Part shown: positions 1 to 4,572 of the stretch, one piece after another
Numbering within the stretch: position 1 is the stretch's first letter
Layout: every line of letters begins with the position of its first letter
The notes under the pieces: model-generated
Databases searched by the model: none
What the model was told of the DNA's origin: nothing
Seen by the model: the letters and a program-made list of their open reading frames with translations, nothing else
IMG/VR virus record: IMGVR_UViG_3300023487_000051
Direction: 5' to 3' (one strand)
DNA length: 4,572 nucleotides
Origin: a virus
Taxonomy: Duplodnaviria; Heunggongvirae; Uroviricota; Caudoviricetes
Position numbers and translations under genes: made by a program

Positions 1-725
1 GAAATCCCGGACATTACAATGCCATCCGAAACAACAATAATGTCACCCGTTTCTTCCGGCATTCGCTCACTACAGCTTATCCAACCATCCGGAGTTACCG
101 GAGAATTGCCAGACAGCTCGTTCAACTTGTAAGTTTGGCTTACAGGTTCGGCTTCCAGTTCTGCAATGCGCTTCTCTGCGGCTTCCAGCTTCTCGCGCAT
201 ATCATCAACGTACTCGACCAGAGATCCGCCAGCAGGAATTTCGCACTCCTCGACCAGTTGGAAGTAGATATCAGCTGCGGACCGTGTGTTGCTATGCCTA
301 GCGTCGCCCATCTCACCTTCACGAAGAGCATCGCGTTCTGCGGTAAGATTGGCTATTTTGCTGTCTTTGCCTTCCAGCTCAACACGCAGTTTCCCTACCG
401 TTAGCGCAATATCCTCGTTCTCCTGATCGCGGAGTTTGATGTATTGCTGGTTTCTTTCCAGCTCATCCAGCAGCGCCAAGACGGTAGCGGGATTGGCTGC
501 GGCGATGAATTCAGCATTGGCCTGCTGTTCCATTTGGAAATCTTCATCGAAACCGCTTTCTGGATGCGCTCCTTCAATTCTGCAAATGGGAAGATATCCA
601 ACAACTTCACGATGAATTAGTGCATCACCAGCATCAAATCTCTCCTCTCCATATTCGAGCGACCACACACCACACGTTGCTTTTTCTGCCGCTTCACGCA
701 GTGCCTGATAGTCAATCTTGTTCAT
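1..725 (-). CDS. Ead/Ea22-like coiled-coil protein, 5' portion only (ATG at 725..723; 241 codons open to the window edge, 3' end beyond position 1)
   Basis: Hand translation of the minus strand from 725 gives an uninterrupted frame to position 3: MNKIDYQALREAAEKATCGVWSLEYGEERFDAGDALIHREVVGYLPICRIEGAHPESGFDEDFQMEQQANAEFIAAANPATVLALLDELERNQQYIKLRDQENEDIALTVGKLRVELEGKDSKIANLTAERDALREGEMGD...MREKLEAAEKRIAELEAEPVSQTYKLNELSGNSPVTPDGW... Missing from the ORF track because it has no in-window stop. Start lies 1 nt after the upstream TGA (TGAcATG). Family call rests on remembered motifs (ALREAAEKAT, ANPATVLALLDELE) and position in a lambdoid early-left region; not verified by search. Confidence 0.7.
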   Translation of the reverse strand, partial: MNKIDYQALREAAEKATCGVWSLEYGEERFDAGDALIHREVVGYLPICRIEGAHPESGFDEDFQMEQQANAEFIAAANPATVLALLDELERNQQYIKLRDQENEDIALTVGKLRVELEGKDSKIANLTAERDALREGEMGDARHSNTRSAADIYFQLVEECEIPAGGSLVEYVDDMREKLEAAEKRIAELEAEPVSQTYKLNELSGNSPVTPDGWISCSERMPEETGDIIVVSDGIVMSGI

Positions 726-726
726 G

Positions 727-1026
727 TCACATCACCCTGAAGCCGTTGCATTTACGTAAGAAATCGCAGATATAGCCCTTCATTTTTTCATGCCAATCTC
801 GATCATTCCCATTGCACCACCCATCAGGTGGAGTCCAGTTTTCTATCAGAGCAGCCATTTTCTTTGCTTTCGCCGGAGTAGCTGTTGCGGTATCGCAGTA
901 ATGACGAGTGTCAACAAACTTATCCATGCCATCGATATCAAGTACGCAAAACCATGTGTGATTCGGAATTCCTACAGGTGGTATTTGTTGCCCACGTCGG
1001 CGTTTATCAATGAGATATACACTCAC
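727..1026 (-). CDS. hypothetical phage protein, 99 aa, Cys/His/Trp-rich
   Basis: Track ORF 727..1026. Start is GTG at 1026..1024 overlapping the upstream stop (GTGA). A full-consensus Shine-Dalgarno AAGGAGGT (plus-strand 1032..1039, reverse complement) sits 6 nt upstream. Five Cys and three His. No family recognised. Confidence 0.75.
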   Translation of the reverse strand: MSVYLIDKRRRGQQIPPVGIPNHTWFCVLDIDGMDKFVDTRHYCDTATATPAKAKKMAALIENWTPPDGWCNGNDRDWHEKMKGYICDFLRKCNGFRVM

Positions 1027-1472
1027 TGGTTACCTCCTTTGCGAAGCTCTGCGGCGAACTCGTTAAGTGATATGTAGCAATCTCCAAATGTTAACGAACC
1101 GCTCGACTGCATATGCTCCATAGCCATCTCCACGCCCTGCGCCCGTACTTCAGCCAGGAAAGCATCGGTGGCTGGGGTTTCAGTAACATCATCTTCCCAT
1201 TCGCTAAACTCCTCACGACAAAAGTCATTAAATTCCTTCTCAGATTGCTTAAGCGAGGTATTTTCAGCAGCCATCTTCGCGCATTTAGCCTCAAGGTTAT
1301 CAATCGTGATTCCAGCAGAACGACACTCCCGCAACGCCGTTTCTAGTTTTGATTCAAGTTCACCGAACTTACGCACCAGATATTCAGCGTTTGTTTCGTT
1401 AACCTTTAAATCTCGGGGGATGCATTTACCTTTCAGAAAACCATCCATCTCAATTAGTGACATTTGTTTCAT
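1023..1472 (-). CDS. hypothetical coiled-coil phage protein, 149 aa (track ORF extends to a GTG at 1490; ATG at 1472 preferred)
   Basis: Track ORF 1023..1490. The ATG at 1472..1470 forms an ATGA overlap with the stop of the upstream 54-aa ORF and is preceded by a purine-rich stretch (GGAGTGGGAAGAA); the GTG at 1490 has no SD. Protein [16 protein letters not shown]...[52 protein letters not shown]...; central heptad-like region. Function unknown. Confidence 0.75.
1032..1039 (-). promoter_or_regulatory. Shine-Dalgarno AAGGAGGT for the 99-aa gene, embedded in the 3' end of the upstream CDS
   Basis: Plus strand acctcctt is the reverse complement of AAGGAGGT; 6 nt upstream of the GTG at 1026. Confidence 0.7.
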
Positions 1473-1633
1473 TTCTTCCCACTCCGCCACATTGCATTCA
1501 GATATTTGTTGTCATTAACAGAGCCGAAACTATTTCTCTTAAGCAATTCCTCTCTCGATGGCATTGGCTTTACGCGTTGGCGAATAATCATTTCTGCCGG
1601 AAGAATGCCGGGATTGTATGCAAGCCCTCTCAT
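1469..1633 (-). CDS. small hypothetical protein, 54 aa (not in ORF track)
   Basis: Hand translation: [57 protein letters not shown] at 1633..1631 overlaps the TGA of the upstream 96-aa gene (ATGA), and its own TGA at 1471..1469 overlaps the ATG of the downstream gene (ATGA). SD-like GGAGAG lies 8 nt upstream. It fills an otherwise unexplained gap of about 140 nt in a packed operon. Confidence 0.6.
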
Positions 1634-1930: not shown

Positions 1931-2227
1931 TCAGTCATTACTGATAGCGCCATAGCGTGAGCGGTAATTACGCAGGCGCGGGTCGATATATTCAGGGAAG
2001 TGGGTATATGTGGCTTTGCGGAATGGTCGGATTGATGTCTGGTAAATTCGCTCGCGTTCTTCTTTCTCTGCAAGCCATATACAGTGGCGAAATTCCTTTT
2101 CCTCTTTCGTTTCCTGCGGTAGAGACATTATCCGGTCGTAGTTTTTTCTGAATTTATCCAGCACCTCCGATACGGAATTGCCGGAACATCGGCGTGGGTC
2201 ATCCTCACCATACAGAGGCGCTGGCAT
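1931..2227 (-). CDS. hypothetical phage protein, 98 aa; first gene after the erf-ssb module (positional candidate for an Abc-like anti-RecBCD function, unverified)
   Basis: Track ORF 1931..2227, ATG start with SD AAGGA about 8 nt upstream, 23 nt after the ssb stop. Protein MPAPLYGEDDPRRCSGNSVSEVLDKFRKNYDRIMSLPQETKEEKEFRHCIWLAEKEERERIYQTSIRPFRKATYTHFPEYIDPRLRNYRSRYGAISND. The functional suggestion is inference from gene order (in P22, abc1/abc2 follow erf) and size only. Confidence 0.75.
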   Translation of the reverse strand: MPAPLYGEDDPRRCSGNSVSEVLDKFRKNYDRIMSLPQETKEEKEFRHCIWLAEKEERERIYQTSIRPFRKATYTHFPEYIDPRLRNYRSRYGAISND

Positions 2228-2250: not shown

Positions 2251-2634
2251 TCAGAATGGGATGGAATCGTCGTATACAGGAGTGTTCTGCTGGTTACTAC
2301 TTTGCTGCTGCGGGCCATTTCCTGAAGCTGTAAATCCAATCTTTGCATTCAGTAATTCAAGAGTAATTGATTGACCATTTTGCCCCTGATAAACATCAAC
2401 CCTGATGTTTTCTCCGGTAATTTCCACAATGCCACCTTCAACAAGAACACTACGGTAGTAATCCGCTTGCGCTCCTGGCTTGGCAAATACAACGGCGCTG
2501 TAGTTTGTCCATTCTTTCTTTTTTGTCTGGCGATCGTAATACTGAACGCCAGCACGGATGTTGAATCCGATATTTTCCCCGGCCTGAAACTCTCTTGCGG
2601 GCTTGTTTAGTCTTACAGTAATCGAATGTGCCAT
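2251..2634 (-). CDS. ssb: phage single-stranded DNA-binding protein, short form, 127 aa, C-terminal tail DDSIPF
   Basis: Track ORF 2251..2724 begins at a non-ATG codon inside erf. The ATG at 2634..2632 overlaps the erf TAA (TAATG), giving MAHSITVRLNKPAREFQAGENIGFNIRAGVQYYDRQTKKKEWTNYSAVVFAKPGAQADYYRSVLVEGGIVEITGENIRVDVYQGQNGQSITLELLNAKIGFTASGNGPQQQSSNQQNTPVYDDSIPF. The terminal acidic DD-x-IPF and the Gly/Gln-rich linker before it are the SSB signature (bacterial SSB ends DDDIPF). It sits directly downstream of erf, as in phage recombination modules. Confidence 0.75.
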   Translation of the reverse strand: MAHSITVRLNKPAREFQAGENIGFNIRAGVQYYDRQTKKKEWTNYSAVVFAKPGAQADYYRSVLVEGGIVEITGENIRVDVYQGQNGQSITLELLNAKIGFTASGNGPQQQSSNQQNTPVYDDSIPF

Positions 2635-3239
2635 TAAGCAGCAGCTCCTTCTAATTCGTCTCGTCTGATGTTGTAAACGTCCTGCGCTTTGTGCTGCTCC
2701 GGTGTGCCTTCGAGCATCTTCCACGCTTTGGCGAACGCCTGTTTAAGCTCTTCCACGGTGTTTTTCTGCAATGCTGCGTCAGTGAATGCTTTTAGAACCT
2801 GTTCAGGTGTAGGTGATAGTTTTGATTGCTTTGCTGCTGCGTTCTGCTGATGTTTATGCTCGTCGGTATCTGCATCTTTCGCATCATCAATGCCGAACAA
2901 ACCATTGAGGCAATACTTGCGTGCATAAGAGCTTGTAGCTCCCGTAACTTGTGCAGAATCCATTCCTTTCTTGCTTTCTTCCTCTCGTGCAAGGGCGGTT
3001 GCCGTATGACTGTTTTCGCCATCGGTAATAGTTGCCGTGGCTTTCACGTAATACCGATCACCAATCAACACAACTTCATCGCTGATTGATAAAAACAGGC
3101 CATTCAGTAACGGCTTAACGCCTTCAAGAATGTCTTCGCAGCTTCTGTATTTATATTTACCGAATGAGTTGTACTGATTCTTTGGCGCGTTCAGATTCTC
3201 CTGAATAGCTGCCAGTCTTGCGTAAAATTCTTTGCTCAT
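2634..3239 (-). CDS. erf: Erf-family single-strand annealing recombinase (essential recombination function protein), 201 aa
   Basis: Track ORF 2634..3269 starts at a TTG; the ATG at 3239..3237 gives MSKEFYARLAAIQENLNAPKNQYNSFGKYKYRSCEDILEGVKPLLNGLFLSISDEVVLIGDRYYVKATATITDGENSHTATALAREEESKKGMDSAQVTGATSSYARKYCLNGLFGIDDAKDADTDEHKHQQ..., which matches my recollection of the P22 Erf N-terminal annealing domain followed by a variable C-terminal domain. Stop TAA overlaps the ssb start. Confidence 0.85.
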   Translation of the reverse strand: MSKEFYARLAAIQENLNAPKNQYNSFGKYKYRSCEDILEGVKPLLNGLFLSISDEVVLIGDRYYVKATATITDGENSHTATALAREEESKKGMDSAQVTGATSSYARKYCLNGLFGIDDAKDADTDEHKHQQNAAAKQSKLSPTPEQVLKAFTDAALQKNTVEELKQAFAKAWKMLEGTPEQHKAQDVYNIRRDELEGAAA

Positions 3240-3249
3240 ATGATTGTTC

Positions 3250-3420
3250 TCAGAATGGACACGGCCCAAGGAAATAACGCTGATTTAATACTTCGACTCG
3301 GGACAAGTTAAGGCATACCCGCATTCCTTCGCGGTCGCCATTATGTCGATACCAGAGAGCTTTCTGCGTGTACATGCGCCTCTGTAACTTGCTCTCCTTC
3401 ACTGTGGTTGCAAGTGACAT
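3250..3420 (-). CDS. small basic hypothetical protein, 56 aa, immediately upstream of erf (Arf-position ORF; not in ORF track)
   Basis: Hand translation from ATG 3420..3418: MSLATTVKESKLQRRMYTQKALWYRHNGDREGMRVCLNLSRVEVLNQRYFLGPCPF. Strong SD GAAGGAGAT (plus-strand 3425..3433, reverse complement) 4 nt upstream of the ATG. Its stop lies 10 nt before the erf ATG, which itself has only a weak SD, so coupling is plausible. It overlaps the 52-aa ORF 3341..3499 by 80 nt in another frame, so only moderate confidence. Confidence 0.45.
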   Translation of the reverse strand: MSLATTVKESKLQRRMYTQKALWYRHNGDREGMRVCLNLSRVEVLNQRYFLGPCPF

Positions 3421-3499
3421 GAATATCTCCTTCGTTACCGATTAATTCTTTCATCTGACGAATGAATTCTTCGTCTGACCAGTTATCTGTAAAACTCAT
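3341..3499 (-). CDS. small acidic hypothetical protein, 52 aa, start coupled to the kil-like ORF (not in ORF track)
   Basis: Hand translation from ATG 3499..3497: MSFTDNWSDEEFIRQMKELIGNEGDIHVTCNHSEGEQVTEAHVHAESSLVST. The ATG overlaps the TGA of the Kil-like ORF (ATGA). It overlaps the 56-aa ORF in a different frame; which of the two (or both) is translated cannot be decided from sequence alone. Confidence 0.45.
   Translation of the reverse strand: MSFTDNWSDEEFIRQMKELIGNEGDIHVTCNHSEGEQVTEAHVHAESSLVST
3425..3433 (-). promoter_or_regulatory. Shine-Dalgarno GAAGGAGAT for the 56-aa Arf-position ORF, embedded in the 52-aa ORF
   Basis: Plus strand atctccttc is the reverse complement of GAAGGAGAT; 4 nt upstream of the ATG at 3420. 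Confidence 0.5.
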
Positions 3500-3648
3500 T
3501 TCCTGCGATACCATGGAAGGTTGATAGCTAATTTCATCTCTTTATTTGCTTCAAGCCACATTTTGGAATCACCAATAAATCTGGCTATTACTGCTTTGTT
3601 TTGTGCAGCACGAAGTATCTGGTGATTGATGGCTATTTCATTGCGCAT
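3496..3648 (-). CDS. kil: Kil-like small protein, 50 aa (putative host cell-division inhibitor), overlapping the 3' end of cIII (not in ORF track)
   Basis: Hand translation from ATG 3648..3646: MRNEIAINHQILRAAQNKAVIARFIGDSKMWLEANKEMKLAINLPWYRRK. SD GAGGT 7 nt upstream. The start overlaps the cIII 3' end by 16 nt in another frame, the same arrangement lambda has for cIII and kil. The segment IARFIGDSKMWLEA resembles what I recall of lambda Kil (unverified). Stop overlaps the next ATG. Confidence 0.6.
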   Translation of the reverse strand: MRNEIAINHQILRAAQNKAVIARFIGDSKMWLEANKEMKLAINLPWYRRK

Positions 3649-3764
3649 AATAAGACCTCAACTCTTTTCCATCCGTCACGTAATTTACGGGTGATTCGTT
3701 CAAGTAAAGATTCATTTAGTTGGAAGGCACCCATGCGAGCGCCTCCCGCGATTGCGTAAATCAT
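3633..3764 (-). CDS. cIII: CIII homolog (FtsH protease inhibitor, lysogeny regulator), short variant of 43 aa (not in ORF track)
   Basis: Hand translation from ATG 3764..3762: MIYAIAGGARMGAFQLNESLLERITRKLRDGWKRVEVLLCAMK. The stretch ESLLERITRKLRDGWKR is identical to the central amphipathic-helix region of lambda CIII as I recall it (MQYAIAGWPVAGCPSESLLERITRKLRDGWKRLIDILNQPGVPKNGSNTYGYPD). SD AAGGAA 7 nt upstream. C-terminus diverges and is about 11 residues shorter than lambda CIII. Confidence 0.8.
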   Translation of the reverse strand: MIYAIAGGARMGAFQLNESLLERITRKLRDGWKRVEVLLCAMK

Positions 3765-3788: not shown

Positions 3789-4572
3789 TTAGTAGGTTAT
3801 TTTTGTTGCGAATACTTCGCCTTTTACGATGGCTGTTATGATATTTTTAGCAACATCTTCTGATGCACCAACCTTGATAAGGTCAGCAAGTATTTTGTTA
3901 TTTACTTCTTTCCGGTGAGCTTTATCCTTTGCTCTACGCTCTTCTTCGTCCTTGATTCTTTTTTCTTCTGCTATTCTGGCTTGCTCTTTTGCTTCAGCCT
4001 CGCGACGGATTCGTTCAGCCTCCTCCTGTGCTTTTCTGCGTTCTGCTTCAATTGCTGCCTGCTTTTCTCTTTCAGCTCGTTCTGCTGCCTCTTTTGCTTC
4101 GCGCTGTGCTCGTTGCTCGGCTTCAATGCGTTCACGCTCTGCACGTTCCGCTGCGGCCTTAGCTTCTGCTTCTCGCCTTGCTGCTGCTTCAATTTCGGCT
4201 TTTGCCTTTGCTTCGGCTTCTGCTCTGGCTTTCTCTTCAGCTTCTCTTTTTAAGCGTTCTTCATGCTCTCGCTTTTCCTGCTCCGCTTTGAGTCTTGCCT
4301 CTTCTCTTTGGCGGTCAAATTCGCGATCCATCAAAATCGCTATTTCATGGTCAGACTCAATTTGCTTTGCGAGAGCTTCAGCTGCTGCCTTAGCTTCTTC
4401 TTCGGCTTTAATCCGCGCCTGTTCCTCTTCATAATCAGTAAGAGGCTGGCGTGCCTTGGCTTTCAGTTCATCAAGGCGATCGCGCACTGTCTTGCGGTTG
4501 GCATCAATTAGCTTTGGAATTTCCTTCAGTTCAGCAACAAGGTCTTTGCCAAGACCATCGAGATATGTTTTC
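3789..4572 (-). CDS. Glu/Arg/Lys/Ala-rich coiled-coil protein (TolA-like low complexity), 3' portion; N-terminus probably beyond the window end
   Basis: Track ORF 3789..4487 begins at a GTG with no SD. Hand translation shows the frame stays open upstream to the window edge (…KTYLDGLGKDLVAELKEIPKLIDANRKTV-RDRLDELKAKARQPLTDYEEEQARIKAEEEAKAAAEALAKQ…REAEEKARAEAEAKAKAEIEAAARREAEAKAAAERAERERIEAEQRAQREAKEAAERAEREKQAAIEAERRKAQEEAERIRREAEAKEQARIAEEKRIKDEEERRAKDKAHRKEVNNKILADLIKVGASEDVAKNIITAIVKGEVFATKITY). Same strand as the operon, 24 nt upstream of cIII. Other frames here are also open, as expected for low-complexity sequence, but only this one looks protein-like. Confidence 0.65.
   Translation of the reverse strand, partial: KTYLDGLGKDLVAELKEIPKLIDANRKTVRDRLDELKAKARQPLTDYEEEQARIKAEEEAKAAAEALAKQIESDHEIAILMDREFDRQREEARLKAEQEKREHEERLKREAEEKARAEAEAKAKAEIEAAARREAEAKAAAERAERERIEAEQRAQREAKEAAERAEREKQAAIEAERRKAQEEAERIRREAEAKEQARIAEEKRIKDEEERRAKDKAHRKEVNNKILADLIKVGASEDVAKNIITAIVKGEVFATKITY
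3910..4430. repeat. low-complexity, internally repetitive coding segment (degenerate GCN/GAR/CGN triplet repeats encoding the AE[KR]A-type motifs); approximate bounds
   Basis: Visible in sequence as recurring gcttc/tgcttc/ctgc units on the plus strand. It explains the multiple long ORFs in several frames on both strands in the track (3915..4253, 3952..4434, 3971..4192). Confidence 0.55.

What the first reader, a model, noticed from the sequence alone, without database searches (positions are those of the whole stretch)
3789..4572. Large ERK/A-rich low-complexity coiled-coil protein inserted upstream of cIII in the pL operon
At least 260 residues, about 170 of them almost pure Ala/Glu/Arg/Lys charged repeats (predicted single alpha-helix or coiled coil, TolA domain-II-like), ending in a short hydrophobic tail (KILADLIKVGASEDVAKNIITAIVKGEVFATKITY). 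This is not one of the canonical lambda or P22 genes I know at this position (N, ral, sieB, ea10). Its function is unassigned; a long charged helix with a globular tail could be a spacer, tether or decoy protein. The N-terminus is outside the window.
Basis: seen in the sequence. Interest (0 to 1): 0.5.

Follow-up and report, generated by a model that had tools for sequence, protein, structure and literature searches.

The report
Phage Agt/gp33 charged-helix recombination-module protein
The ORF is a real, well-conserved phage gene, identical in protein to Shigella phage Sf6 gene 33 and an orthologue of phage phi80 agt; databases mislabel it 'TolA', it almost always sits beside the phage's DNA-recombination genes, and its biochemical role is still unknown.

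Summary
A minus-strand ORF covers 3789-4571 (260 codons plus TAA). It has a long Glu/Ala/Arg/Lys-rich stretch, a small hydrophobic C-terminal end, and lies 24 nt upstream of cIII.

It is not new. The 260 residues are identical to residues 63-322 of Sf6 gp33. Near-identical DNA occurs in 269 phage records and in 530 of 5426 complete E. coli genomes, mostly labelled 'cell envelope biogenesis protein TolA'. That name is compositional: there is no membrane anchor and no TolA model match.

It is a full-length orthologue (51% identity) of phi80 Agt, which GenBank annotates as 'anti-toxin for Gam / modifier of Gam'.

The family is large (5766 clusters at 50% identity). Members share a conserved N-terminal domain, a variable-length charged helix with single-alpha-helix (SAH) features, and a conserved roughly 45-residue C-terminal mini-domain.

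In 18 of 20 informative contexts the gene lies next to a single-strand annealing protein and/or its exonuclease. The annealing proteins belong to four different families: Erf, RecT/Bet, Rad52 and Sak4.

Best reading: a two-headed spacer protein that serves the phage recombination/anti-nuclease module. The mechanism is inferred, not shown.

The parts
3789..4572 (-). C-terminal 260 codons plus the stop of the Sf6 gp33 / phi80 Agt-family gene. The N-terminal ~62 codons lie beyond the window edge.
   Evidence: Protein identical to Sf6 gp33 residues 63-322, with 13 of 13 nucleotide differences synonymous. PHROG 1376/21365, E ~1e-79 to 1e-119.
4413..4571 (-). Second half of the conserved N-terminal domain (full-length residues 63-115). 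It contains the invariant K63, D67, G70, K71, L73, D85, R88, R92, L95, D96, R103, P105, L106 and R115.
   Evidence: Alignments A1 and A3. The profile search finds 5766 representatives, always at the protein N-terminus.
3906..4436 (-). Glu/Arg/Lys/Ala-rich helix of 177 aa (about 26 nm if fully helical). It is single-alpha-helix-like and its length varies between alleles.
   Evidence: Opposite-charge i/i+4 pairs number 60, against 29±4 in shuffles. Strong hydrophobics are 9.6% with no heptad periodicity. AF2 predicts one helix over residues 46-295. In-frame length variants run from 245 to 333 aa. Imperfect GCTTCT-type DNA repeats are present.
3792..3920 (-). Conserved C-terminal mini-domain (…HRKEVNNKILADLIKVGASEDVAKNIITAIVKGEVFATKITY): a helical hairpin followed by an extended C-terminal segment ending in a near-invariant Tyr.
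   Evidence: Family alignments A6, A7 and A9. AF2 model of the last 60 residues has pLDDT 95.9.
3633..3764 (-). cIII, the next gene downstream (context).
   Evidence: Pfam Lambda_CIII, E 4e-15.
3496..3648 (-). kil (context).
   Evidence: Pfam Lambda_Kil, E 4.5e-18.
2634..3239 (-). Erf-type single-strand annealing protein. This is the recombination gene with which the family is syntenic.
   Evidence: Pfam ERF, E 5e-44.
2251..2634 (-). SSB-like protein ending in …YDDSIPF.
   Evidence: PHROG 44 'single strand DNA binding protein', E 1.7e-26. No Pfam hit.
1931..2227 (-). Abc2, the P22-type anti-RecBCD protein.
   Evidence: Pfam Anti-RecBCD_p2, E 3e-61.

Best explanation
The ORF is the Sf6 gene 33 / phi80 agt orthologue, a delayed-early pL-operon gene.

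Its product has three parts:
- a conserved helical N-terminal domain (residues 1-115);
- a long, length-tolerant Glu/Arg/Lys/Ala helix that most likely behaves as a stiff single alpha-helix spacer of about 25-35 nm;
- a conserved C-terminal mini-domain of about 45 residues.

I infer that it is an accessory factor of the phage recombination/anti-nuclease module, which here comprises Erf, an SSB-like protein and Abc2. Its two conserved ends would bind two partners and hold them at a distance, or moderate their action. The effect would be to tune how the phage module deals with host DNA-end machinery and to limit its toxicity, as the phi80 record states for Agt and GamL.

Shown: the gene is real and under purifying selection; it is orthologous to Agt; the three-part architecture is conserved; the synteny with annealing-protein modules holds.

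Inferred: the partners, the tether/moderator mechanism, and the transfer of the phi80 'antidote' phenotype to this phage.
For: Coding and selection:
- 13 of 13 differences from Sf6 are synonymous.
- dN/dS is 0.11 overall and 0.055 in the N-terminal domain.
- Length variants of 245-333 aa all keep the C-terminal tail in frame.

Orthology:
- 51% identity to phi80 Agt over all 322 residues, with the same architecture.
- The phi80 record annotates agt as 'anti-toxin for Gam; Mog (modifier of Gam)' and gamL as 'toxic without Mog'.

Family:
- 5766 representatives.
- Shared N-terminal domain and C-terminal tail from Enterobacteria to Pseudomonas, Vibrio, Shewanella, Iodobacter and Sinorhizobium phages.

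Synteny:
- 18 of 20 informative contexts place the gene within a few genes of an annealing protein and/or its exonuclease.
- The neighbours are Erf, RecT/Bet, Rad52 or Sak4, with YqaJ, DUF3799 or RecE exonucleases.
- The window itself carries Erf, an SSB-like protein and Abc2.

Helix:
- SAH-type charge pattern.
- AF2 predicts one helix over residues 46-295, mean pLDDT 82.

Literature:
- In Firmicutes phages the slot upstream of the annealing-protein gene holds Mu-Gam-like, DUF2483, DUF1351 or Sipho_gp157 genes. That paper proposes analogous functions for them (PMC8093625).
Against: - No experiment on this protein or its close relatives was found in the held literature.
- The phi80 paper itself could not be read, so the antidote claim rests on a GenBank note plus my recollection of the abstract.
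- Most family members have no adjacent Gam, so 'Gam antidote' cannot be the general function.
- In this phage the gene is separated from erf by cIII, kil and two small ORFs.
- The partner annealing-protein families are unrelated to each other, which argues against one specific annealing-protein partner.
- About 15% of close prophage relatives carry inactivating mutations, so the gene is dispensable at least in prophages.
- No structural or sequence relative with a known activity exists.
Confidence: 0.6

Rival explanations
1. It is a dedicated antidote (antitoxin-like partner) for one specific toxic phage protein, as phi80 Agt is said to be for GamL. Here the partner would be Abc2 or Kil.
For: The phi80 annotation reads 'anti-toxin for Gam' and 'gamL toxic without Mog'. 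A Klebsiella phage has the same Agt-GamL-Bet-Exo order. One phage record labels the homologue 'antitoxin protein'. The window encodes the potentially toxic Abc2 and Kil.
Against: Only 2 of 20 contexts have an adjacent GamL. Most have only an annealing protein plus exonuclease or SSB. A 322-aa protein with a ~170-aa spacer is unlike typical small antitoxins. The neighbours change while the N- and C-terminal modules stay conserved.
Confidence: 0.15
2. It is an accessory 'moron-like' early gene unrelated to recombination. Examples would be an anti-defence decoy, a host-takeover factor or a superinfection-exclusion factor that merely shares the early-left operon with recombination genes.
For: It lies in the variable N-to-cIII accessory region, where ral, sieB and ea10 sit in lambda. 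It is often inactivated in prophages. Charged helices are used as mimics or decoys by some phage proteins (general knowledge).
Against: The linkage to annealing-protein and exonuclease genes persists in unrelated, non-lambdoid genome layouts and in both gene orders. There is no PADLOC hit of note (LmuB, E 0.03). The helix has a near-neutral net charge (-9 over 177 aa), so it is not a DNA mimic.
Confidence: 0.15
3. It is a TolA-like envelope or colicin-import membrane protein, as NCBI, JGI and Pharokka annotations state.
For: Database names. Its composition resembles TolA domain II.
Against: TIGR02794 tolA_full gives E 0.62 and 9.2 bits against a cutoff of 59.45. There is no Pfam hit. The highest 19-residue Kyte-Doolittle mean is 1.03, so there is no membrane anchor or signal peptide. 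Similarity to anything in the PDB is confined to the low-complexity stretch, for example zuotin at E 0.005.
Confidence: 0.02
4. It is not a functional gene: a compositional open frame, or the real gene is on the other strand.
For: Long antisense open frames exist (3952-4434 and 3915-4253 on the + strand). One antisense frame also reads 12 of 13 differences as synonymous, because its wobble positions coincide with those of the sense frame. Some relatives carry stops.
Against: Only the minus-strand frame is open end to end in all homologues. The antisense runs break at different places. The conserved N- and C-terminal domains lie outside the low-complexity part. 66 of 80 close relatives are intact at 322 aa. 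Sf6 has a strong Shine-Dalgarno sequence (GGAGGATATATG).
Confidence: 0.01

Closest known systems
Shigella phage Sf6 gene 33 protein (AAQ12223.1) and the identical or near-identical proteins of CUS-3, HK544, Sf101, IME10 Orf53, mEp043/213/234 and Stx1a phages; PHROG 1376
   Same: The protein is 100% identical over the 260 residues in the window. The position is the same: downstream of tL2 and N, upstream of cIII-kil-erf.
   Different: Nothing detectable in the part seen. Whether the N-terminus is intact in this source is unknown. The closest record, phiv205-1, has a Q30* stop.
Phage phi80/Lula Agt ('anti-toxin for Gam', Mog; AFV29176.1)
   Same: Full-length orthologue: 322 aa, 51% identity, with the same N-terminal domain, charged helix and C-terminal tail. 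It is an early-left operon gene upstream of the recombination genes.
   Different: phi80 has GamL-RecT-Exo immediately downstream. This phage has cIII-kil, then Erf, an SSB-like protein and Abc2, and no Gam. The antidote phenotype is known only for phi80, from the GenBank note and my recollection of Rotman et al. 2012, J Bacteriol; the paper was not readable here.
DUF1351 (PF07083), DUF2483, Sipho_gp157 and Mu-Gam-like genes upstream of annealing-protein genes in Firmicutes phages
   Same: They occupy the same genomic slot next to Erf, RecT, Redβ or Sak4 genes. DUF1351 proteins are of similar size (about 300 aa) and largely helical.
   Different: No detectable homology: Pfam gives no hit and hhalign gives a probability of 0.4%. 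The analogy is positional only.
TolA domain II and eukaryotic ER/K single alpha-helices (myosin VI/X, caldesmon)
   Same: Glu/Arg/Lys(/Ala)-rich, with i/i+4 salt-bridge patterning and few hydrophobic residues.
   Different: There is no TolA membrane anchor or TolA domain III. No homology; the likeness is convergent composition.

Membership tests
Sf6 gp33 / phi80 Agt family (PHROG 1376) | Conserved N-terminal domain (VPDxTTxKGRxxIASxAxKVxxxKTxLDxxGKxL…RxPLTxWE) | tested here: met
   The window holds residues 63-115 with all invariant positions present. PHROG 1376 gives E 7.5e-79 for the window part.
Sf6 gp33 / phi80 Agt family (PHROG 1376) | Central charged helix of variable length | tested here: met
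Sf6 gp33 / phi80 Agt family (PHROG 1376) | Conserved C-terminal mini-domain ending in …I-x-Y | tested here: met
   The window ends …KGEVFATKITY.
Sf6 gp33 / phi80 Agt family (PHROG 1376) | Location beside a phage annealing-protein/exonuclease module | tested here: met
   Erf lies 550 bp downstream, followed by the SSB-like gene and Abc2. 18 of 20 family contexts agree.
Sf6 gp33 / phi80 Agt family (PHROG 1376) | Neutralises toxicity of a phage nuclease inhibitor (the phi80 Agt phenotype) | not testable with these tools
   Known only from the phi80 GenBank note.
TolA (TIGR02794) | Match to the full-length TolA model | tested here: not met
   9.2 bits against a cutoff of 59.45, E 0.62.
TolA (TIGR02794) | N-terminal transmembrane anchor | tested here: not met
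   The highest 19-residue hydropathy mean is 1.03, and it lies in the C-terminal tail. The N-terminus was read from Sf6.
DUF1351 (PF07083) | Pfam HMM or profile-profile match | tested here: not met
   No Pfam hit at E ≤ 1. hhalign probability is 0.4%; the DUF1351 profile was shallow, with only 4 sequences.
ER/K single alpha-helix (SAH) | Dense i/i+4 opposite-charge pairs, few hydrophobic residues, no heptad repeat | tested here: met
   60 pairs against 29±4 in shuffles (0 of 2000 shuffles reach it). Hydrophobics (ILVMFWY) are 9.6%. The heptad-power p-value is 0.94.
ER/K single alpha-helix (SAH) | Monomeric stable helix in solution | not testable with these tools
   A periodicity of 11/3 for Ala plus hydrophobic residues (p 0.001, uncorrected for 9 tests) leaves helix-helix pairing open.
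RuvA domain III / UBA-like fold (C-terminal mini-domain) | Sequence or fold match to RuvA_C or UBA | tested here: inconclusive
   [not shown]

The most novel reading that the evidence does not exclude
The Agt/gp33 family is a general, so far unrecognised fourth component of single-strand-annealing recombination modules in phages of Proteobacteria. It would be a rigid ER/K 'ruler' whose two conserved ends couple or space the phage recombination/anti-nuclease proteins and a host DNA-end or replication factor. This would hold whichever annealing-protein family (Erf, RecT, Rad52 or Sak4) the phage uses. Including it could change the efficiency or toxicity of recombineering systems.
Probability: 0.3. 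Interest if true: 0.55.

Novelty: already known. Interest (0 to 1): 0.3.

Why it matters
About one in ten complete E. coli genomes, and hundreds of phages, carry this gene under a misleading 'TolA / cell envelope biogenesis' name.

Its near-constant position beside annealing-protein/exonuclease modules of four unrelated recombinase families, together with the phi80 'Gam antidote' note, marks it as a candidate regulator or scaffold of phage recombination.

That has three practical uses. It can correct annotation. It can help in understanding how phages control toxic nuclease inhibitors. It might improve recombineering cassettes. The object itself is not new, and its role remains untested.

Tried and rejected
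- Pfam, NCBIfam and PADLOC scans of the full-length protein and of ten distant family members gave nothing meaningful.
- PDB sequence searches used the whole protein, the N-terminal domain profile and the C-terminal tail profiles. They returned only low-complexity or sub-threshold hits.
- Homology to DUF1351 was rejected by hhalign. The first guess at a DUF1351 source, phage 80alpha, had none annotated in the region fetched.
- RuvA domain III likeness of the tail is a weak sequence lead that the fold search did not confirm.
- Literature searches for Sf6 gp33, TolA-like lambdoid genes and Agt/GamL found nothing relevant. The phi80 genome paper is not held.
- The viral-contig locus scan returned only close E. 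coli relatives. It served for allele statistics but not for context diversity.
- Antisense ORFs were rejected as compositional by-products.
- P0137's Pfam 'Abc2' label turned out to mark a deletion fusion, not domain homology.
Full report
**What is in the sequence.**
On the minus strand an ORF ends with TAA at 3789-3791 and stays open to the window edge. That gives 260 codons over 3792-4571.

Overall composition is 21% Glu, 20% Ala, 12% Arg and 12% Lys. From about window-residue 91 to 220, A+E+R+K makes up 80-95% of every 20-residue window. The protein ends with …NNKILADLIKVGASEDVAKNIITAIVKGEVFATKITY.

Twenty-four nucleotides downstream on the same strand lies cIII (3633-3764, Pfam Lambda_CIII). 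After it come:
- kil (3496-3648);
- two small overlapping ORFs;
- an Erf-family annealing protein (2634-3239);
- an SSB-like protein (2251-2634; PHROG 44, C-terminus YDDSIPF);
- Abc2, the P22-type anti-RecBCD protein (1931-2227).

**Is it a real gene?**
The window DNA is 98-99.4% identical to 269 phage records. These include phiv205-1, CUS-3, HK544, Sf101, IME10, mEp043/213/234, Sf6 and many Stx1a/Stx2a phages. It also matches 530 of 5426 complete E. coli genomes.

Against Sf6 there are 13 nucleotide differences in 783 nt, and all 13 are synonymous in the claimed frame. The 260 residues are therefore identical to Sf6 gp33 residues 63-322. Against a relative with 79% nucleotide identity, dN/dS is 0.11 overall, 0.055 in the N-terminal domain and 0.125 in the tail.

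Natural alleles of 245, 275, 290, 300, 306 and 333 aa differ by in-frame deletions or duplications inside the charged region. All keep the C-terminal tail. The DNA there contains imperfect GCTTCT-type repeats that could drive such changes.

One antisense frame also reads 12 of 13 differences as synonymous. That is expected, because its wobble positions coincide with those of the sense frame. The long antisense open runs break at different places in different homologues, whereas the sense frame is open end to end in all of them.

Among 80 close relatives from viral contigs, 66 are intact at 322 aa. About 12 carry inactivating changes:
- a stop at codon 20, in seven loci;
- single-base frameshifts at nt 336, 793 and 896;
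- a 14-nt deletion;
- mosaic truncations.

Separately, phage phiv205-1 carries a Q30* stop.

The gene is therefore real and under purifying selection, but dispensable enough to decay in some prophages. It is not met.

**What it is.**
Sf6 annotates the gene as gene 33 (322 aa), downstream of terminator tL2A and upstream of cIII. Pfam has no model for it. PHROGs place it in phrog_1376/21365/17211, all of 'unknown function'.

NCBI, JGI and Pharokka-style annotations call it 'cell envelope biogenesis protein TolA', 'colicin import membrane protein' or 'TolA protein'. That name is an artefact of composition:
- the TolA model TIGR02794 scores 9.2 bits against a cutoff of 59.45;
- no 19-residue window exceeds a hydropathy mean of 1.03, so there is no membrane anchor;
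- PDB sequence hits (zuotin and others) align only with the low-complexity segment.

A tblastn search with the N-terminal 115 residues found 191 phage records. They include Pseudomonas, Vibrio, Klebsiella, Erwinia, Yersinia, Shewanella, Acinetobacter, Iodobacter and Sinorhizobium phages.

One of them is phi80. The phi80 protein is 322 aa and 51% identical over its whole length. Its GenBank record names it agt, 'anti-toxin for Gam; Mog (modifier of Gam)'. The next gene, gamL, is noted as 'host RecBCD/SbcCD enzymes inhibitor; toxic without Mog'.

From my own recollection of the abstract of Rotman et al. 2012 (J Bacteriol), gamL was found as an unclonable toxic gene, and agt as 'its own antidote, apparently encoding a modifier protein'. 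I could not read that paper here. No held paper discusses agt.

**Family anatomy.**
A profile of the N-terminal domain found 5766 cluster representatives (50% identity clusters) at E ≤ 0.001, and 1742 at E ≤ 1e-30. Among the 150 best listed, the match lies at or near the N-terminus of nearly all, and most full-length proteins are about 320-360 aa.

An alignment of 19 diverse members shows three conserved parts:
1. An N-terminal domain of about 115 residues with invariant or near-invariant D42, T45, G48, R49, S54, K63, G70, P105 and E110.
2. A middle region. In Enterobacterial members it carries a 'DHE[IM]A[IL]LM..FDR' motif. In most others it carries one or more 'W.EF…A…K' modules. A Glu/Arg/Lys/Ala/Gln-rich stretch of variable length follows.
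3. A tail of about 45 residues with consensus READKxHxxxINNxAxxxLIAxGxxEExAKxxVxAIAxxxVxxxxINY. Its terminal Tyr is near-invariant.

AlphaFold2 on the full-length protein gives mean pLDDT 82. It predicts two short helices (12-37) packed on the start of a single uninterrupted helix spanning residues 46-295, then a turn and a last helix. The tail modelled alone with 64 sequences gives pLDDT 95.9. It forms a helical hairpin with an ordered extended C-terminal segment.

The charged segment has 60 i/i+4 opposite-charge pairs, against 29±4 in shuffles. It has 9.6% strong hydrophobic residues and no heptad periodicity (p 0.94). These are the hallmarks of an ER/K single alpha-helix rather than a classical coiled coil. 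An 11/3 periodicity of Ala plus hydrophobic residues (p 0.001, one of nine tests) leaves helix pairing open. At 0.15 nm per residue the helix would span about 26-37 nm.

**Genomic association.**
I examined 21 contexts chosen for diversity, and 20 were informative. In 18 the gene lies within a few genes of a single-strand annealing protein and/or its exonuclease.
- *RecT/Bet neighbours:*
  - phi80 and a Klebsiella phage (Agt-GamL-RecT/Bet-Exo);
  - Pseudomonas D14O (Bet-Exo);
  - Iodobacter PhiPLPE (RecE-Bet-X-RdgC);
  - Shewanella 1/41 (X-DUF3799-RecT);
  - two metagenomic contigs (X-RecT; RecT-YqaJ-X).
- *Erf neighbours:*
  - Pseudomonas phi_D3 (Erf-Exo);
  - Sinorhizobium phiLM21 (Erf-YqaJ-NinB);
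  - Pseudomonas Medea1 (ERF-YqaJ-SSB);
  - Vibrio phiV039C (ERF-SSB-X);
  - Yersinia 21.09 and the Sf6 type (X-cIII-…-Erf-SSB).
- *Unclassified:* Edwardsiella GF-2 has the same cIII-type layout, but its recombination protein carries no family name in the record.
- *Rad52-type neighbours:* Vibrio 219E41.1 and one contig (Rad52-X-exo-SSB).
- *Sak4-type neighbours:* two contigs with DUF3799 plus AAA_24. One of the AAA_24 hits is below the Pfam cutoff.
- *Exceptions:* one Vibrio phage whose neighbours have no Pfam hits, and a 3.2-kb contig carrying methyltransferases.

The neighbour is thus a recombination module, whichever annealing-protein family it uses. Gam is adjacent in only two cases.

A paper on Firmicutes annealing proteins reports that the slot upstream of erf/sak4/recT is occupied by Mu-Gam-like, DUF2483, DUF1351 or Sipho_gp157 genes. 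It proposes that they have analogous functions (PMC8093625).

I tested direct homology to DUF1351 using Oenococcus phage phi9805 gp48 and its relatives. hhalign gives a probability of 0.4%. The resemblance is therefore positional, not homologous, as far as this shallow profile can tell.

**Search for a biochemical handle.**
No solved structure is related by sequence, whether to the whole protein, the N-terminal domain or the tail. None is related by fold either. BFVD returns only family members.

The tail profile gives repeated but non-significant hits to RuvA domain III and a UBA domain:
- E 0.1-1.4 against PDB sequences;
- Pfam RuvA_C for 1 of 17 members;
- hhalign probability 48% against E. 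coli RuvA domain III.

**Most likely mechanism.**
Shown:
- a conserved, selected protein with two conserved end modules separated by a long, length-tolerant, SAH-like helix;
- orthology to phi80 Agt;
- near-constant linkage to phage recombination modules.

Inferred: the two ends bind two different partners, and the helix sets their spacing. The protein would thereby organise or restrain the phage recombination/anti-nuclease functions (here Erf, SSB and Abc2) in relation to host DNA-end machinery. That would account for the phi80 note that GamL is toxic without it.

Because the adjacent annealing-protein families are unrelated, a common host factor or DNA structure is a more likely shared partner than the annealing protein itself.

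My estimates are as follows:

| Claim | Probability |
|---|---|
| Orthology to phi80 Agt | about 0.97 |
| Belongs functionally to the recombination module | about 0.75 |
| Tether/moderator mechanism | about 0.3 |

Rivals are a dedicated antidote for one toxic partner, an unrelated anti-defence or decoy accessory gene, a TolA-like envelope protein, and a non-gene. The first two remain possible. The last two are effectively excluded.

**Novelty and verdict.**
The object is already known as a sequence. Sf6 gene 33 is an identical protein, and the family has a named member, phi80 agt. It is common, so the finding is not a discovery.

What remains open is its function. The points a specialist might find useful are these:
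- the systematic 'TolA' misannotation;
- the three-part architecture;
- the breadth of the family;
- the consistent placement beside annealing-protein modules of four different families.

Interest is modest, at 0.3.

Noticed in passing
window 2251-2634 (-): A 127-aa ORF between erf and abc2 has no Pfam SSB hit. It matches PHROG 44 (SSB, E 1.7e-26) and ends in …PVYDDSIPF, which resembles the acidic C-terminal tip of E. coli SSB. It is probably a divergent phage SSB that keeps the host-partner-binding tail.
   Followed up: partly
L001 (phage phiv205-1) 6039-6186; L083-L089, L012, L014, L090: The closest phage record, phiv205-1, has a CAA→TAA change at codon 30 of this gene. Seven viral contigs have a stop at codon 20. 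Others have 1-nt frameshifts at nt 336, 793 or 896, or a 14-nt deletion at nt 468. About 15% of close relatives are pseudogenes. Whether the window's own copy is intact upstream of 4572 cannot be told.
   Followed up: yes
window 3906-4436; proteins P0003, P0005, P0016, P0018, P0099: Alleles of 245-333 aa differ by in-frame deletions or duplications inside the charged helix, for example an 11-residue duplication RERIEAEQRAQ in P0003. The DNA carries imperfect GCTTCT and 27-37-nt repeats. The helix length is evidently not tightly constrained.
   Followed up: partly
window 3952-4434 (+) and 3915-4253 (+): Antisense ORFs of 160 and 112 aa (Ser/Ala/Cys/Phe/Leu-rich) lie opposite the charged region. 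They are by-products of the GAA/GCN/CGN/AAR codon composition. The equivalent frames in homologues are interrupted at different places.
   Followed up: yes
window 3250-3420 (-) and 3341-3514 (-): Two small overlapping ORFs of 56 and 57 aa lie between kil and erf. They are homologues of Sf6 gp29/gp30 and fall in PHROG 1723 and 2123, both labelled 'recombinase' (category 'other'). They may correspond to the P22 arf-type accessory recombination slot. No Pfam hit.
   Followed up: no
protein P0137 (E. coli prophage): A 111-aa protein consists of gp33 residues 1-79 fused to the last ~30 residues of Abc2. It marks a prophage deletion that removed the whole cIII-kil-erf-ssb block. Its precomputed Pfam label (PF11043) comes from the Abc2 end.
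   Followed up: yes
window 3-725 (-) and 1023-1490 (-): The incomplete 241-aa ORF at the left edge and the 155-aa ORF at 1023-1490 both hit many PHROGs of unknown function and share phrog_368 and phrog_14548. This suggests mosaic, modular coiled-coil-type early proteins. ORF 727-1026 is DUF7739 and ORF 1630-1920 is DUF5405/PHROG 154.
   Followed up: no
family members P0262, P0206, P0301: Distant family members carry one to several repeats of a 'W(Q/E)EF…A…K…A…L' module between the N-terminal domain and the charged helix; P0262 has at least four. Enterobacterial members have a short 'DHEIAILM..FDR' motif instead. The function of this module is unknown.
   Followed up: no
[not shown]
   Followed up: partly
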